Shown: positions 4,627 to 44,874 of the stretch, in pieces
Layout: every line of letters starts with the position of its first letter
Numbering within the stretch: the stretch's first letter is position 1
From: Mobula hypostoma
Lineage: Eukaryota
Direction: 5' to 3'
Length of the DNA stretch: 64,000 nucleotides
Assembly (NCBI RefSeq): GCF_963921235.1
Contig: NC_086108.1
Coordinates: 50,842,001 to 50,906,000 of the forward strand
Notes under the pieces: generated by a model
What the model was told of the DNA's origin: nothing
Databases searched by the model: none
Seen by the model: only the letters and a program-made list of their open reading frames with translations
Made by a program: the position numbers and the translations under genes

Positions 4627-5689
4627 GTGAGTTTCCTTCACTGCCTGTTCATCTCTTACAAAAAGTATATTCCTTGGAATGTAAATGCCCTGTCTTAGCA
4701 ACTTTGTAAATCTCTTCATGAGAAAGGCAATAATCTCACAAACTGTGCCAACAAATCGATGTACTCCTTGGCATTTTCTCACCAAGTGTATTTTTAATTG
4801 TCGCTATCAGAGTAAAATTCAATATATTTTTGGTAGACTAACTTAAAACTCCCGATTAAACATTTATAGCTTTCAGACTCACCTTTACTTAATTTTAACT
4901 TTCTGTTCATAGCCAGCATTTCTCATTTCTCTTCTTATTTCTAAACTCAGTACGGCCATATCGATGCTTCCAGAATGCTTGCGAGCTCAGGCACAAATAT
5001 CTCGGATTGAAAATGGCAGCACACAGACTTGTTCAGTCGGAATCTTGAATGCATTTGTGTTTCAGATGAACTAGGCCTATACATGTTTTGATTAGAGATT
5101 TTCCACTTAATGATACTGCAGCAAGTGACACTAAGAAAGTAAGAGGAGTGCAAAAAGTCACATGACATCAACTCGTCTCCTCTTTAAGACTACTGTTTGG
5201 AAAAGTTAGTTACAACTTTACATAAGTAGGGTGCCATAAAACGTGTGGGATGTGTGGCGGTGAGGTAGATGGAAGAGAATTAAGAAATTTGCTCCTATAA
5301 TGACACTGTGAATGCAACTAAAATGTGCTTTATATTTTTGTATTTTTCATATATTAGATTAATACAAATTATTTATAACATAAAGACTTGGCTGTTCACC
5401 TCAACAACAGACTTGTGGAAAAACAACACCAAGGCTGTTTACAAGAAGGGGATGAGAGCAGACTCTAAGGAAGTATATATATATTTCTTTTCATATTTTT
5501 TTCAGTTTCTGCTTGTAATGTTTAAAACATAAGGCACCATGGTGAAAATGGTTTAGTCTTTAGTTGTCCATGCATTACTAATATTTGATTTGTCCTATTT
5601 GAAACAAGTCAATTAAAATAAGTGATAAATGACAATCAGCAGTACTGAGGTGTAACATTGCTGACCTGCATCTCCTTGCACTCATCTCC

Positions 5690-6035
5690 ATGACCTACTG
5701 AATAAGCAGCGGGGCACCCTTTCAAACAGGCTTATTTATCTCCGCGGTCACAAAGATCGTTACAGAAAATCTTTCCTACCAGATGCAATAAGCATATACA
5801 CCAGGAGAACACACATCATAGTACAATAGTCTCTGTTTTATTACTTCATACATTATTATTGCACCGGTAAATTACTATTTTGTATATTATTATTCCATAA
5901 TTTATTATTAGTTAATATTATTATTATATTTATTATTATTGCTAAGTGTATTTTTAAATGCTGCTGTAATGAAATAATTTCCAACTTGGGATCAATAAAG
6001 TACTTATTATTATTATTATTATTAATATTATTATT
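5690..6035 (+). mobile_element. Rex1/Babar-like LINE 3' end with (TAT)n tail
   Basis: RYRKSFLPDAISIY-type C-terminal coding remnant, then gggatcaataaagta and a (tta)n tail. Confidence 0.7.
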
Positions 6036-6548
6036 ACATAAAGAGTATAATTGCCCAAAATACCAGCTAATAAGTCAGAGGCAATCAAACGGTGGAGGAA
6101 ACTGGCCCTGATGTTTTCAATTATATATTTTCCATATAATTTTACATTATTTCAACCTCTTGCTTTTTTTACAGTTTGAATTGGAAGTACTGGTGGTGTT
6201 TCTCAGCTGTGGTTTCTTTTCGGAGAAGGATGGCATGATTGAGACCATTCTCCAAATCCAAGTAGGCATAGTTTGTAAACATTTCCTAAAGGAGTTCATG
6301 TCAATTAATGTGAAACTCATAAAGGGGGATTGATTCCATCTGACACACAGAGGCCAAGTGATGCAGATGAAAGCATGAGGTCAGCCTGAAGTTTGGTGAA
6401 TTTGTCAAAGACAAAGCGTATTGTACCTATAACTTTATGGTAAGTGGCAGGAAGATGCAGGTCAGCAAAGTTACACCTCAGTACTGCTGATTGTCATTTA
6501 TCACTTATTTTAATTGACCTGTTTCAAATAGGACAAATCAAATATTAG

Positions 6549-6743
6549 CAACTCACACAAAATACTGCAGGAACTCAGCAGGCCAGGCAGCATCCATGGA
6601 AAAAAGAAAAGTCGATGTCTCGGCCCGAAATGTCAGCTGTACTTTTCTCTATGGATGCTGCCTGTCCAGCTGAGTTCCTTCAGCATTGCGTGTGCCTTGC
6701 TTGGATTTCCAGCATCTGCAGATTTTCTCTTGTTTGTGTTTTG
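6549..6743. mobile_element. Penelope-derived short foldback element (inverted terminal repeat unit) with AAATATTAG TSD
   Basis: Arms cacacaaaatactgcaggaactcagcaggccaggcagcatcc and ggatgctgcctgtccagctgagttccttcagcattgcgtgtg; TSD 6540-6548 and 6744-6748 plus 7354-7357. Confidence 0.85.
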
Positions 6744-6748
6744 AAATA

Positions 6749-7351
6749 CAGGTATGCATCACTTAACACTCACGATATGTTCTGTGAAATCGGTCATTAT
6801 GTGATTTGGACGTTGTGCGATCACCACATTGTATACTTAACAAACCTATATGGAGTACTGTAGTACCTGTATTGACTAAATCCACGTCATTAGCAATTTC
6901 TCCATATCTGATAAAGGTCCCTCTCGCATTTTCATGAGCCTCGTAGTTTTCAGTGAAGCAGATCCTTTAACAGCTTCGAGAATTTTTTCTTTGTTTTTCA
7001 GGATCGATGTGAATGTCGAGTGCAACATGCCTAAATCCCGAGCAATAGCATTCACTGATTTTCCACCTTCATGTTGTTTAATAACCTTTTGTTTCACTTC
7101 CAAATCAATACTCTTCCTTTGCCTCTTGCTGCTGCTATCACTAGGAGTGGTTTTGCTGCGTTTGGAAGCCATGATGCACTTTACGGTAATATTTTTGAAA
7201 GAAAATTAAACAGAGAGATAACGATACTATACTCAAGAGATGTGCAATACACGAGATTGGTTACATCCGCTACATCACGTTCTCCGATCCGGACTACAGA
7301 TGTATATGTGATCGGACGTTGCCCGAATGGACATTAAGCGGCGCACACCTG
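6749..7351 (-). mobile_element. Tigger3-like (pogo/Tc1-mariner) DNA transposon, internally deleted, retaining the transposase N-terminal CENP-B-type HTH
   Basis: TIRs CAGGTATGCATCACTTAA and TTAAGCGGCGCACACCTG flanked by TA; ORF 6876-7172 RKSIDLEVKQKVIKQHEGGKSVNAIARDLGM...MEKLLMTWI. Confidence 0.92.
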
Positions 7352-9289
7352 TATTAGTAATGCATGGATAACTAAAGTCTGAACCATTTTCATCCAGGTG
7401 TCTTACGTTTTAAACATTATGATCAGAAACTGAAAAAAAATCAAAAGAAGTAAATATATATTTTTCAGAGAGCAAATACCAACAAAGAAAGCCACTCAGA
7501 TTCTTCATGGGATGTTTGTGACATACTCACCAAATACACTGAGACTTCTAACATACAGCATATGCAAGATCATTAAAGAAAAATATTAATAGCATAATTA
7601 TGAGCCAAATTGATGGCTGGCAATACTGGATTTAAGCCTTGCTTTACAGAATTAGCACTGAAACCCACGCTGTTGTTGCACAGGACTGAGGTGTAGTCAG
7701 ACTCGTGTGAAAAGCTTATGTGGACAGAGAAAATGAAGTGAAAGTGGTTCAATTGCACAAGATAATTGTGTTACTCTCAATAATTGAGCATATTTTATGT
7801 TTGAAAATAAGTCCAGGGAACATTGTATAGAAAAGTCAAACCATGTGAATAAAGGGGAACCATTACAAGGCAAATGTAAATGCAAATATATACGCAATCT
7901 GTACGAGGAATAAAATAAATATTTTCAAAGTACTTGTGTAGCAGATAAATAATTCTAGATGGGATAAGGAGTTAAGATAAGGTTAAAAGATTTCAATTTA
8001 AGTTATTTCACTTACAATTGTGCAGCAGATTTATTGCTTCTGAATTTCCTTCCATAATCCTGATTCAATTTATGCTCACAATCCAACTCCTCGCTCACTG
8101 GCTCTGAGGGAAATTCTCCTGCCCTGATCTTTGACCCTCATGTCGTTTCCCCTCAGGTTTGTTCTCTGATTTACTGGTGCCCTTCCCTCTCTGGCACTTG
8201 TCATATTTTCGGCATGCGGCAGAGTTATGAATGAAGTGGAGTCTGGGTAGAATATGATTGTGATGTGGGAGGAAACCACCATAGAGACAGTTCTTGGAGG
8301 AACAACAGTGAATGGGCAAAGGAAGGCAGCAATCGCCGCCTTTCACAATGATTCTAGATCAGCATACCCATTCTGATTATCCTTGTGTTATCAGTGCTGG
8401 CAAATTGATTGATTTATTTTTCAAGTTGCCTTCATTCTTTTGAGTAAGGTGAAGAAATGCAATATTCTAAAAACATCAGTGACAAAATGATCCGTTCATA
8501 AATTTCAATGTATGCACATGTTCTTAAATTTGAAGTCCCCTAACTCATTGTTGCAGAAATGATAGAACAGGTAAAATCCAGTTGAAGTGTTTGCCTTTGT
8601 TCATTGTTGTCTAAATTGGAAGCTAAATCCCAACATGCAGATAGTACAAAGAACTACTATCTTCTTTGTAGTAAAGCGCATTTCCTGAGGCAATCACTGA
8701 AAAACTTTGCACACTGCTGGCAAAAGCAGCAGACATTTGGACAAAAGCACTGTTATGCTAAGGTCAGAACAAGGTGGTGCTCTTAACGTGAGTAAACCTT
8801 ACATATGTGTGAAGTTTCAGTGATGATTCATCTCAGACAAAAATAGTAAACTTTATTTATAGCATTATAGTATGAGATCATTTATAGCTCAACACTCCTT
8901 CAAATATTTTTCATGAGTCAGAATTTACTCCAATACTAAATACATGAACACCTAACTCCATGGTAATATAAACAAGAGACAAATAAATTGCCGCACCTTA
9001 AATGTATCAAGCAAAATCACACATTCTATCAAAGCTGTAGGAATTCTTTTTGTGAATTGAAGCTTAACATGAATATTTGTGAAGCTAGAAATAAGCTTGT
9101 CTATAAATAGTTACAATCAATTTGTCAACTATGATGAAATAAAATAGATTATTGACATAGGGTTGAGACCATCTTGGTGTTAACCTGCTGAGTAGGAGAC
9201 AGAACTGATTTTGGTCTTTGTTTTCTTAACACGTTCAATTCCCAGAGGGACAATCAATCTGCGGGTCATACTTGGCGTGGGACCAGGGG

Positions 9290-9820
9290 AGGGGGAAAGG
9301 AATTAATGATGTTTTGTGTCAAAACCCCTGTATCAGGACTGAGAGTGGAGAGGCAAGATGGCTAATATAACAAGGGGAAGATAAAACAAGAGTCTGAGGT
9401 GACTTGGAGGATGTGGGGGGCGGGGGGAGGGAGGAATGAGGTGATAGGTGGGTTGTGCCAGGTAGAGGAGAGGAGCTGGGAGACAGTGGCTGGCTGGTGA
9501 ATGATAGTTTGGGGCATACAAAGAGAGAAAGAAAGTTATCTTCCCCATCTCAATCCAACAATCACTCCTGTCTCACCACTCTCCTTCACCTCTTTATCCT
9601 GGCCATTTTCCCTCCCCACTCTCATTCTAAAGCTGGGCTTCGAACCGGAACGTTAAATATCCTGTCTCTTCAGGACAGACACACCTCGAACAGACTTCAC
9701 TGTGGAGCAGCAAATCGTAAGCACGAGAGTTTCTGCAGATGCAGGCTGGGGCTCCTCGACCTGTTGAGTTCCTCCAGCAGATTGTTGCTTGATGTTCCAG
9801 CATCTGAAGTCTGTCCTGTT
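9290..9820. mobile_element. Degraded Penelope-like inverted terminal unit
   Basis: Purine-rich arm followed by pyrimidine-rich arm, decayed hammerhead remnants, and ctgttgagttcctccagca terminal motif. Confidence 0.65.
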
Positions 9821-20198: not shown

Positions 20199-23100
20199 TC
20201 ATCATCACCATCAGGTGCCATGCCCAGTTTGAGTTTTGACTGCCATGGCCCACACTCTCCTGTTTCAGATCAAGTGGATCAGTTCATTGGTATTCATTTC
20301 CAGTTCTCTGGCTGCTGTCTCCATCATCATTTGTCTTTGTCTTCCTCTTGCTTTCTTCCCTTCAATCTTTCCCATAATTACCGTGCATTCTAAGTCCTCT
20401 TTCCTAATCACATGTCCAATGAAGTTACGTTGCCTTTTCATGATCTCATACATTATTTCTATTTTTGTGTTTACCCTGTTCATGACATCCTCGTTCGATA
20501 TTCGTTTCGTCCATGATATTCTTTGCATCCTCCTCAAAAACCACATCTCTGCTGCTACAATTCGTTTCCTCATGTTACTAGATATTGTCCAACATTCTGA
20601 GCCATATTTCATAACTGGATAAACGTAACATTCCAGTACTCTGAGGCGAGTTGTCATGCCTAGTTTAGTATTGGTCAGTATACTCTTCATTCTCGTAAAG
20701 GTATCTTTTGCCATTCCTATTCTTCTTTTGATGTCCATGTCACACCTGCCATCTGATATCACCCAGCTTCCTAAGTAGCAAAAGTTCTGTACTTGTTTTA
20801 TGTCTTCCCCATTTATTCTCAGCCTGCAGATAGGATTCTCCTTCTTTTTGGATATCACCATACATTCTGTCTTTTTGCAATTGATAGATAGACCGACTCA
20901 TTTTTGCACTTTCTTCGACAATTATATCAATTAAGTTTTGTAGTTCTTCCTCCGTACTTGCAATTAACACAGTGTCATCTGCATATCTGAAATTATAGGT
21001 GTTTTCACCGCCAACTTTGATTCCCAAGACGTCTCTTACTTTTTGTAATATTGTTTCACTGTACACATTAAACAAATCGGGGAGAAAGCATACCCTTGTC
21101 TAACGCCTCTCTTGATTTTCATAAACTGACTCACTTCTCCATCTATTCTTACAGCAGCAGTTTGTTCCCAGTACGGATTTCTGATTAGGTGGAGATCTTT
21201 CGAATCTAGATCTAGAGTTTTCTATAATATTTCAAATAACTTACTATGCTTCACTTTATCAAATGCTTTTGTGTAGTCGATAAAACAAACAAACAAATCT
21301 TTTTGCACTTGAATAGCTCGTTCTGATAGTATCCTTAACATCAATATTGTGTTTCTTTCACAAAACCACATTGTTCTTTACCTATTTCAGCTTGTATCTT
21401 ACTTTTAGCTCTTGTCATTAAAATTCTTAGAAGTATCTTGGTGATATAACTCATTAAACTTATGGTCCTATTTAATTCACATTCTATTGCTCCAGGTTTC
21501 TTAGGAAGAGTGATAAATACTGATTTTTTCATCTCTTCTGGTATTATTCCGGTCTCGTAAATATCATTGATTAAATGAGTAAGTTTTTCAATTCCATGAT
21601 CTTCAAGGGCGATAATTTGTTCTATTACTAATTCATCAGGACCTGCTGCCTTTCCTTTCTTCATTTTATTTATTGCATTACGAACTTCAGATTTTAAAAT
21701 ACTTTGACCTTCAATGTTTTTCTTAATTTCTGGTTTTTCACCTCAATTGTCTTCAAACAATTCCTGAATATACTCAGTCCATCTGTTCATAATCTCATCT
21801 TTTTCCATGATAATGGTACCACCCTTTGCTTTCAAACATTCACCTGAGAACAGAGGAGCTTTTTACCGGTGATATTCTTGATTTGTTGATGTAACCTTTT
21901 TGGATCAGTAATAGGGATTCTTTCCATTTGCTCACATTCCTGGTTTAAGCATTCTTCTTTGGCTTTTGGACATAAGCTTTTAACTTTTTCATCTAAGGAT
22001 TTATATTCTATAGGATTTGCTTTCTTCCTTCTCCTTTCTTCCATTAGATTTTTGATTTCATCTGTCATCCATTTACTCTTTGTGCTCTTTTCTTTTTCAG
22101 GAATCACTGACTTTGCTGATTCTACCAAGGCATCCTTTACAGAGTTAAATTTCATTTCAACATGATTGCTATCATCTTCAACAGATTCTATTTGTAGACT
22201 TTGAAATCTATTCGTTACTTCAATTGTAAATTTTTGTCTTAAGTTTTCTTCTTTAATTAATTGCAAGTAGTAAAGGGATTGTTCAGGTTTTTGCTTCTTT
22301 AGTTCTTTAAGTTTTACTTTTACATGACATACTACTGGATTATGGTCACTAGTACAGTCTGCACCTGGATATGTTTTGCATTGAGTCACTGAGTTTCTAA
22401 ATCTTTGGTTTATAGTAATAAAGTCACTCATTTCTCATCTCTTTCATTTCTTTCCCCTAGTCCAAATTTTCCTATGGTATTTCCATCAGCACCTTGTCCT
22501 ACTTTAGCATTTAGATTTCCCATGACAGTAACAATATCTTGAGATTTGCATCCCTTCTTTGCTTGTTCAAGCTCTTCATAGAATTTATCTATATCCTCAT
22601 TTGTTCCATCTGTTGGTGCATATACCTGTATAATTGCTAAATCAAATGGTTGTCCTCTGAATCTAACAAGGAGCACTCTTTCTGATATTGCCTAATGTCC
22701 TAAAACACTTTTCGCCATGTTTTCATCCATAAGAATTCCTACTCCATTGGTATGGGATGTTCCACAAGAATAAATTAGTGTTTTATTTCTATTCAGACAT
22801 GTTCCAGCACCTATCCAATGAACTTCGCTAATTCCCATGATGTCAAACTTTAGTCTTTCCATTTCATTTATCAAATTGTCCAATCTTCCTGCTTGATTTA
22901 GGGTTCTTACATTTCAAGTGGAAATAATTTTCTTCTGTGTTACTTTAATTTTATGAGCAGTAGCTTGATGACGGTCAGGAATCCCCTGCTGACTAGAATC
23001 AACCCTACCGAGCGAAGCATCTTCAAAATTGTCTTGAAGATCCTCTTGACGCTGTTGTTGTGTGATACATTTTGTGAGTTTGACCATGGTTTTCTTAGCA

Positions 23101-43626: not shown

Positions 43627-44553
43627 GAGTCTCAGCCCGAAATGCGACTGTTTAATCTTTTCCATAGATGCAGCCTGGCCTGCTGAGTTCATGCAGTATT
43701 TTGTTTGTGTTGCAAGGGAGATGGGGACAATGAGGGAGGGGAACCTGAGGGCATGGTGTATGAGTGACGGGTAGGTGTAGTGGGAAAGGAAGAAGGAAAT
43801 GGGGTGTGAGGTGGTGTAAGAGGAACTGGGTAGATCAGTAGGAGGCAAAAAAGGGCCAGAAAAGAGGCAGTTTACCAGAGATTCAATATTTATTGCCTTT
43901 AAGTTCTTTTGTTTATTTTTTTGCCCAGGGTGAGTGTGAGGTGCTGATTCTGTCATTTGCATTTGTCTTCACTATGGACAAGTCCGGTGAGAGATATTGG
44001 TGTGGAGGTGGGAAGGGGAGTGACATGGCTCCAGGTGGCCATGATGGACAGAGTGCAGACTCATGGAAGCAAGCTGATCACTTGGTTCAGATTGCTTGAA
44101 GTTACAGGTCTTACTGGAGTACTGCCTGTTAGTACTGCCTTGGGAAACTTTCAACATAACCAGTGCTCTTGGATCATTTTTGATGTCATAGAGAGTCAAA
44201 TAAATTAACAAAAGATTGACTTCTACAGAAGTGATTCAACATAGGTAATTGGAGATAGATTATCCATTCCAGATCTGAACTTGGTTGCAAATGCTTCAAG
44301 TGTGTCTTTAACACTCAGACATTGAGAGTAGGATCTTTGTGGAATCTCCTTCCCCAGTTAACTGTTTCCCTCTTCACAACATTCATGATGAGATGTGAAA
44401 GAACTGCACAGCTTTGATTTGATCTGCTAATTGCATGCTGGCTTTGGTGTGTACCCTGCATTTTTCATCATCACTGGCATGTCCTCTGCACTCCTTATTG
44501 AACCAGGGTTGATACCCCAGCCTGAGAGTAATGGTAGAGGGATATTCTGGGCA

Positions 44554-44600
44554 AACTCCACCATGAACAGTCCCAAGCCCAGATGCAAAATGAGGATGGT
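44554..44600 (+). ncRNA. Decayed twister ribozyme (3' cleavage-product form)
   Basis: AA-CUC-cacc...cag-UCCCAAGC-ccaga..aaaau-GAG-GAUGG matches the P1-type twister order UAA-P2-...-UCCCAAGC-...-P2-GAGGG. Confidence 0.65.
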
Positions 44601-44791
44601 TAGTCATGGAGTGAGCAACCCCATCCTGTAAAAACCCAGAGCCACAAAAAACGCCAGAAGATCCAGAGACTTCATTCTTGGGAGAAGATGGGCTACACCT
44701 GGGACGACATGAAAGACTGGTCCAGGATGGACGTAAGCTGCTGTGGGTGGTCTATGCCACAGAAAGCGTGATGGACTTGAAGAGAAGAAGC
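44554..44791 (+). mobile_element. ~240-bp RTE-derived non-autonomous element inserted in an old minus-strand LINE
   Basis: RTE-type 5' motif gcaaccccatcctgtaaaaac joined to an RTE 3' end with a (gaa)n tail; imperfect TSD GATATTCTGGGCA (44541-44553) and GATATTCCAGGAA (44792-44804). Confidence 0.75.
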
Positions 44792-44874
44792 GATATTCCA
44801 GGAATGAAGTTACAGATAGTGATGGAATACATCTCTGTATTTGCTGATGCTCATAGGATCTTATGCAGTCCCAG

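What the first reader, a model, noticed from the sequence alone, without database searches (positions are those of the whole stretch)
44541..44804. Twister ribozyme remnant defines the exact 5' end of a ~240-bp RTE-derived mobile element
Seen: after an imperfect TSD the element starts AA-CUC, carries the UCCCAAGC loop (44571-44578) and GAG-GAUGG (44592-44599), then RTE-like 5' and 3' ends with almost no ORF. Established: twister ribozymes cleave U/AA, have this motif order, and occur at 5' ends of RTE-type retroelements. Inference: the insertion begins at the cleavage site, so this is a ribozyme-processed non-autonomous retroelement. Most stem-breaking differences (cacc, cag, cca) look like CpG-to-CpA decay, implying an active ancestral family.
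Basis: partly seen in the sequence, partly recalled or inferred. Interest (0 to 1): 0.8.

Follow-up and report, generated by a model that had tools for sequence, protein, structure and literature searches.

The report
Twister-headed mini-RTE with paired ends
This is a worn-out copy of a short jumping element built from the two ends of an RTE-type LINE; it starts exactly where a predicted self-cutting RNA would cut (a known arrangement), and its two ends share a base-pairing pattern conserved across RTE families that likely explains why such two-part miniatures arise.

Summary
Confirmed. 44554-44791 is a decayed copy (83% to consensus) of a family of about 2,000 or more short elements in a 3.48 Gb genome. 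Conservation starts abruptly at AA; 44 of 105 copies repeat the 8 bases before the AA just after the tail (control 2.5%). The consensus head carries the Perere-3 twister core and restores P2, P4 and both pseudoknots, but scores below Rfam's cut-off, and this copy is broken. The element is the 5' UTR plus the last codons of an RTE LINE whose decayed full-length copies carry the same head. All of that is of known kinds. In five RTE families from metagenome contigs this 13-bp helix ranks first of 4.1 million long-range placements, with 7 of 13 pairs compensatory, and 51 of 54 deletion junctions leave it in place. I found no paper describing it. This scan noted the family (e1-7807837) and such a helix (e1-8169279, e1-8169641) before. 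Cleavage and the helix's function are inferred, not shown.

The parts
44541..44553 (+). Target-site duplication, upstream copy; ends on the base before the AA
   Evidence: family-wide TSD tests
44554..44599 (+). Decayed twister core (AA, P2, T2, short P3, P4, loop, GAGGG); 8 differences from consensus, 5 of 12 pairs broken, the first A and the G that begins GAGGG kept
   Evidence: Rfam alignments of sister copies; assignment of the catalytic A and G and of T1/T2 pairs is recalled and by analogy
44600..44603 (+). 3' strand of P1 (UUGG in consensus); its partner must come from flanking DNA
   Evidence: Table 1 of PMC8501958
44602..44628 (+). 5' UTR hairpin shared by all RTE families aligned here, whatever their head
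44652..44682 (+). 5' strand of the end-joining helix (2-nt deletion in this copy)
44683..44685 (+). Junction of the LINE's 5' UTR with its 3' end at an AGA microhomology; same junction in L005 and L026, and by eye in L019 and L006
44686..44780 (+). Remnant of the last codons of the RTE ORF (MGYTW..AQDRGLW..CP.. in intact-reading copies)
44721..44749 (+). 3' strand of the end-joining helix
44750..44777 (+). Predicted 3' terminal hairpin, directly next to the helix
   Evidence: consensus fold; decayed in this copy
44778..44791 (+). Short GAA-rich tail
   Evidence: tail types
44792..44804 (+). Target-site duplication, downstream copy

Best explanation
This is a dead copy of a non-autonomous retroelement made of the 5' UTR and the 3' end of a Perere-3-like RTE LINE, whose RNA was likely cut out of host read-through transcripts by its twister head and likely copied in by the LINE's enzyme, which is predicted to recognise a helix formed between the two retained ends. 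Shown: the exact AA start, the abutting TSD, the two-part anatomy, decayed full-length parents with the same head, amplification from short masters, and covariation of the 5'-3' helix across RTE families. Inferred: (1) read-through transcription; (2) cleavage before the AA, with P1 borrowed from flanking sequence or dispensed with; (3) in the 3-kb LINE RNA the helix brings the 5' UTR next to the terminal hairpin and loops out the ORF; (4) deletions inside that loop give short RNAs that keep the whole signal, while deletions that cut the helix are rarely propagated, which is why the derivatives are two-part.
For: AA start and TSD; also in full-length L241 and metagenome L130/L131. Twister: all P2, P4, loop and GAGGG/UUGG motifs equal Sma-1 twisters in Table 1 of PMC8501958; Rfam twister-P1 hits at the start of 8 of 20 copies, of L111, L130, L131 and L241; head 42/46 identical to L130. 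Parent: L241, L112, L111; relatives have one ORF of about 1,000 aa with endonuclease then RT. Short form dominates: 27 of 30 head-picked and 29 of 30 tail-picked copies carry both parts within 600 nt. Masters: exact junctions recur, and 29 of 31 short copies with a long 5' part lack a 9-11-nt segment present in all three LINE copies. Helix: best partner of the 5' segment is the 3' end in 10 of 10 full-length loci; rank 1 of 10,296 aligned window pairs; rank 1 of 4,114,146 13-bp placements, 58/65 cells paired, 7 of 13 pairs compensatory, next unrelated 56/65 with 3; held-out family L233/L240 11-12 of 13; 51 of 54 junctions lie inside the helix's inner ends.
Against: No cleavage, binding or expression data. 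All Rfam scores are under the cut-off and the twister shows no covariation beyond shuffles. Flanks are not enriched for P1 pairing. In single elements the helix is not the strongest long-range duplex and is absent from whole-length minimum-energy folds of L130 and L122. The short consensus folds it only when two CpG positions are intact, and overall folding z is only -0.7 to -2.2. Only 19 of 30 head-picked copies keep both outer strands nearly whole, and a small deletion of the outermost 5' pairs recurs. The most distant family (L239, L242, L236) pairs at 7-8 of 13, no better than its best slid control. Helix length 13 was chosen after seeing the data. No intact parent ORF was found.
Confidence: 0.68

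Rival explanations
1. The helix is real but serves the LINE's translation or stability (an uncapped, ribozyme-cut RNA closing its ends); short elements keep it only because template jumps happen near its base, not because the enzyme needs it.
For: Junctions cluster within about 90 nt of the helix's inner ends and often at microhomologies; 11 of 30 head-picked copies lack a whole outer helix.
Against: Short elements are not translated, yet about ten junction classes that amplified all stop at the inner ends, several exactly there (131 on the 5' side, 88-91 on the 3' side).
Confidence: 0.27
2. The AA start is inherited from the master's transcription start (internal promoter) and the twister is vestigial in this family.
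For: No P1 enrichment in flanks; sub-threshold scores; a 5-nt P3 and longer linker than published Sma-1 twisters.
Against: The start coincides to the base with the published cleavage site, the core is 42/46 identical to a distant family whose ORF region is far more diverged, and variants with any base before AA cleave (PMC8501958).
Confidence: 0.1
3. Each short copy was made afresh from the full-length LINE by a template jump and never propagated itself.
For: Many different junctions.
Against: Exact junctions recur in many copies, a second derived deletion is shared by 29 of 31 long-5' copies and absent from three LINE copies, and none of 30 tail-picked copies has LINE body upstream.
Confidence: 0.08

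Closest known systems
Twister T-variants at the 5' end of Perere-3 (RTE clade), Schistosoma mansoni (PMC8501958; abstract, sections 17, 18 part 1, 19, 21, 22 and two supplement rows read)
   Same: Same core motifs, AA start, TSD abutting the cut site, P1 5' strand from the flank, same downstream hairpin and UTR layout.
   Different: Here the head sits mostly on ORF-less two-part elements; P3 is reduced to 5 nt; cleavage untested; no 5'-3' helix in the sections read.
Bipartite ORF-absent non-autonomous RTE LINEs (RTE-N families, WALLSI3, RTESINE, Bov-A; PMC5786205, parts 1-4 of 5 and supplement part 1 of 15 read; PMC7245038 passages)
   Same: 5' end plus 3' end of an RTE LINE joined by internal deletion.
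   Different: That paper names a 5' ribozyme only as a general possibility and says such derivatives arise in few clades 'for unknown reasons'; here a twister head, about ten junction classes and a covarying end-joining helix are documented.
R2 SIDEs of Drosophila (PMC3414825; abstract only)
   Same: Ribozyme head joined to the 3' end of the parent, mobilised in trans.
   Different: HDV-like ribozyme, site-specific in rDNA, rare; this family is twister-headed, dispersed, in thousands.
Rfam twister-P1 (RF03160)
   Same: L1, P2, P4, L4 and both pseudoknot motifs align to the model.
   Different: No encoded P1 5' strand, minimal P3; best score 46.9 against 67.2 bits.

Membership tests
Twister ribozyme, type P1 | Conserved core motifs in order (AA, P2, GC, P4, UCCCAAGC, AAA, P2', GAGGG) | tested here: met
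   Consensus and Rfam alignments; broken in the window copy
Twister ribozyme, type P1 | P2, P4 and two pseudoknots can pair | tested here: met
   86% of cells against 31-61% slid; outermost P4 pair unpaired in this family; no covariation beyond shuffles
Twister ribozyme, type P1 | Rfam gathering score 67.2 bits | tested here: not met
   Best 46.9; window copy no hit
Twister ribozyme, type P1 | Encoded P1 stem | tested here: not met
   Flank pairing equals control; as in the published T-variants, to which it is better assigned
Twister ribozyme, type P1 | Self-cleavage before AA | not testable with these tools
   Needs an assay
RTE-clade LINE (parent) | Single ORF of about 1,000 aa, endonuclease then RT, short tandem tail | tested here: met
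   L113, L122; decayed parent L241 aligns along that ORF
RTE-clade LINE (parent) | Placement in the RTE clade on an RT tree with named references | not tested
   No named references held; clade assigned from anatomy and the Perere-3-like 5' UTR
Bipartite non-autonomous LINE | Only the 5' and 3' ends of a LINE, no ORF | tested here: met
Bipartite non-autonomous LINE | TSD and short tandem tail (retrotransposition marks) | tested here: met
Bipartite non-autonomous LINE | Propagation from short masters | tested here: met
   Recurrent exact junctions and a shared second deletion; no tree built
tRNA/5S/7SL-headed SINE | Small-RNA-derived head | tested here: not met
   No such Rfam hit over the element; the head is the LINE's own

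The most novel reading that the evidence does not exclude
RTE LINEs close their RNA into a loop: a 5' UTR segment pairs with the end of the ORF next to the terminal hairpin, and this two-ended structure, not the 3' end alone, is what the reverse transcriptase recognises. This would be a built-in check for full-length RNA, would explain why RTE-mobilised elements are two-part, and would be a design rule for RTE gene-writing templates.
Probability: 0.4. Interest if true: 0.8.

Novelty: new variant of a known kind. Interest (0 to 1): 0.57.

Why it matters
The element itself combines published kinds: twister-headed RTE, two-part RTE derivatives, ribozyme-headed SIDEs. [quoted passage not shown] A covarying 5'-3' helix gives a cause that one compensatory-mutation experiment can test. 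RTE-derived gene writers use templates flanked by both cognate UTRs (PMC13708176, passages), so the rule would be of practical use. It also shows the 5' ribozyme as a swappable module in front of a constant hairpin-plus-helix core.

Tried and rejected
Rfam on the window copy: no twister hit; its fold is no better than shuffles, z 0.0. Exact head pattern in metagenome contigs: 0 matches. RTE relatives in viral and prokaryotic collections: none. Single-element all-against-all duplex scan: helix not on top in any of 5. Whole-length folds of L130 and L122: helix absent. P1 enrichment in flanks: none. U preference at -1: 41 of 105, mild and partly biased by copies chosen with the Rfam model. Expression: no RNA holder listed; the contigs laid are other copies of the repeat and say nothing on this locus. 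The breakpoints printed were over-extended and are not used; searches are. An alternative pairing of the 5' hairpin with the 3' hairpin scored fourth but dropped after composition correction; rejected. The intact 1,018-aa RTE ORF in the genome (L233) has another head and is not the parent. The 3' end of Perere-3 was not found in the paper's supplement, so the helix is untested there. A Pfam scan of the decayed parent's own peptides was not done; its class rests on relatives. Literature searches for the helix and for the twister-RTE link found no description of the pairing; Gogolevsky 2008, Okada and Hamada 1997, Ruminski 2011, patents, bioRxiv supplements and 14 of 15 parts of the PMC5786205 supplement were not read and may bear on novelty.

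Full report
Observation. The element runs 44554-44791 between two copies of a 13-bp target duplication. A search of the window's genome (3.48 Gb, unnamed) gave 2,347 first-look candidates; head-only and tail-only queries gave 1,746 and 2,139. These are lower bounds. In 71 copies information content is near zero up to -1 and 1.5-1.7 bits from the AA on. In 105 distinct copies with an alignable start and tail, 90 begin AA and 44 repeat the 8 preceding bases (at least 7 of 8) just after the tail, against 78 of 3,121 shuffled pairings; the match peaks at offset 0 and falls to 7 at +5. Where the target's next base is not A, 16 of 22 copies still begin AA, so the first A belongs to the element.

The head. 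The consensus has the P2, GC, P4, loop, GAGGG and UUGG motifs of the Schistosoma Sma-1 twisters listed in Table 1 of PMC8501958, with a 5-nt P3 and a longer linker. Rfam twister-P1 hits the start of 8 of 20 copies at E up to 0.5, at best 46.9 bits genome-wide, always under the 67.2 cut-off. In 20 aligned heads 86% of cells pair for P2, P4, T1 and T2, against 31-61% when slid, but there is no covariation beyond shuffles; the pseudoknot assignment is by analogy with the known fold (recalled). Flanks form P1 no more often than control DNA. The window copy differs from consensus at 8 of 46 core positions, 4 by CpG decay, and loses 5 of 12 pairs; it gives no Rfam hit and folds like its shuffles. 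It is dead. The family is old: median 85% identity to consensus in 26 copies, 83% for this one.

The body. The 3' part reads as the C-terminus of a LINE ORF. Following it upstream gave decayed long copies with the same head: L112, L111 and L241, about 3.06 kb, with a TSD abutting the AA and 104/120 and 94/105 identity to the short consensus. Relatives in metagenome contigs (48 loci; I examined the best 42) have one ORF with endonuclease and RT domains and short tandem tails. One family (L128, L130, L131) has the same twister head, 40-42 of 46 identical, again with the TSD next to the AA; others have different heads before the same hairpin. The published Perere-3 5' UTR has the same layout. The short form dominates: 27 of 30 head-picked and 29 of 30 tail-picked copies hold both parts within 600 nt. 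Junctions fall into about ten classes, several exact in many copies, often at microhomologies; 29 of 31 short copies with a long 5' part also lack a 9-11-nt segment found in all three LINE copies, which points to amplification from short masters.

The helix. While reading the alignment I saw that a 5' UTR segment is reverse-complementary to the 3' coding end (note), and tested this on the metagenome families, which had not been used to find it. In 10 of 10 full-length loci (four families) the segment's best partner along the element is the 3' end, z -3.3 to -5.7 against 200 shuffles; for L113 the tie is its duplicated tail. Within single elements this duplex is not the strongest of about 5,000-9,600 window pairs. 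Across aligned families (61-68% identical) it is rank 1 of 10,296 window pairs, with and without composition correction. A scan of all 4,114,146 long-range 13-bp placements in five families puts it first on both pairing (58 of 65 cells) and compensation (7 of 13 pairs; next unrelated placement 56 of 65 with 3), although the 3' strand is coding. In fixed register, a second RTE family of this genome pairs at 11-12 of 13, the short consensus at 10, decayed L241 at 7, and the most distant family at only 7-8, no better than slid controls; own-family pairing beats swapped pairing in all but 3 of 40,320 permutations of eight families, five of them the scan set. A consensus from 60 copies folds 11 of 13 outer pairs at probability 0.78 or more and the inner helix at about 0.73, directly beside the terminal hairpin; an earlier consensus with decayed CpGs did not, and whole-length folds of two LINEs lack it. 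Of 60 copies picked by head or tail alone, 54 could be split; 51 have the junction inside the helix's inner ends and 53 keep both outer strands at the junction, though only 19 of 30 head-picked copies have both outer strands nearly whole once other deletions and insertions are counted.

Mechanism. Shown: anatomy, exact start, TSD, parentage, covariation. Inferred: read-through transcription, cleavage before the AA, mobilisation by the LINE protein, and recognition of the two-ended structure. I put 0.9 on the element's identity, about 0.85 on a ribozyme-set 5' end in the ancestral family, 0.85 on the helix being real, and 0.4-0.5 on its being needed for template recognition rather than for translation or as a deletion hot spot.

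What is known. Twister at the 5' end of an RTE with the TSD beside the cut site is shown for Perere-3, with cleavage of any N before AA (PMC8501958); PMC7761336 states that truncated twisters are conserved at RTE 5' ends (passage). Two-part RTE derivatives are common (PMC5786205; PMC7245038) and R2 SIDEs are the ribozyme-headed precedent (PMC3414825, abstract). Searches found no description of the helix; older subscription papers and patents were not seen. Within this scan, the same family was reported as e1-7807837 and an end-joining helix in elements with another head as e1-8169279 and e1-8169641; I read these, and they are not independent support.

Verdict. A real, dead member of known kinds, plus a well-supported but functionally untested 5'-3' helix that makes an open question testable. 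New variant of a known kind; interest 0.57.

Noticed in passing
L233 (G000:C36:131598600-131603600, minus): An RTE ORF of 1,018 aa with no stop, of a second family with a different head (HDV-like by recalled motif; no Rfam hit). It could in principle mobilise related short elements.
   Followed up: partly
L178, minus strand 1501-2180: One element holds a tandem array of about seven 85-nt units spanning the helix 5' strand and the junction, with different junction variants, inside one TSD.
   Followed up: no
L113 3530-3660: The 3' end is tandemly repeated, each repeat starting at the inner end of the helix's 3' strand; could be re-initiation or an assembly artefact at the contig end.
   Followed up: no
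L052, minus strand 1288-1430: Two twister heads in tandem before one body.
   Followed up: no
L114, L122, L154, L239, L242, L236 5' ends: A longer shared 5' domain without Rfam match replaces the twister in front of the same hairpin; RTE heads look modular.
   Followed up: partly
family-wide: The base after the downstream TSD is a purine in 35 of 44 copies (A in 22), suggesting microhomology with the first A at 5' joining.
   Followed up: partly
L032, L056, L063, L168, L209: Recurrent short deletion between two ACAGAA repeats removes the outermost 5' pairs of the helix, mostly in long-5' junction classes; may be a subfamily.
   Followed up: no
window 20250-22973, minus: A decayed endonuclease-RT LINE of another group, 28-37% identical to L113's protein.
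   Followed up: no
L154 7908-7952, minus: Type I hammerhead-like match, 31.8 bits against a cut-off of 34.
   Followed up: no
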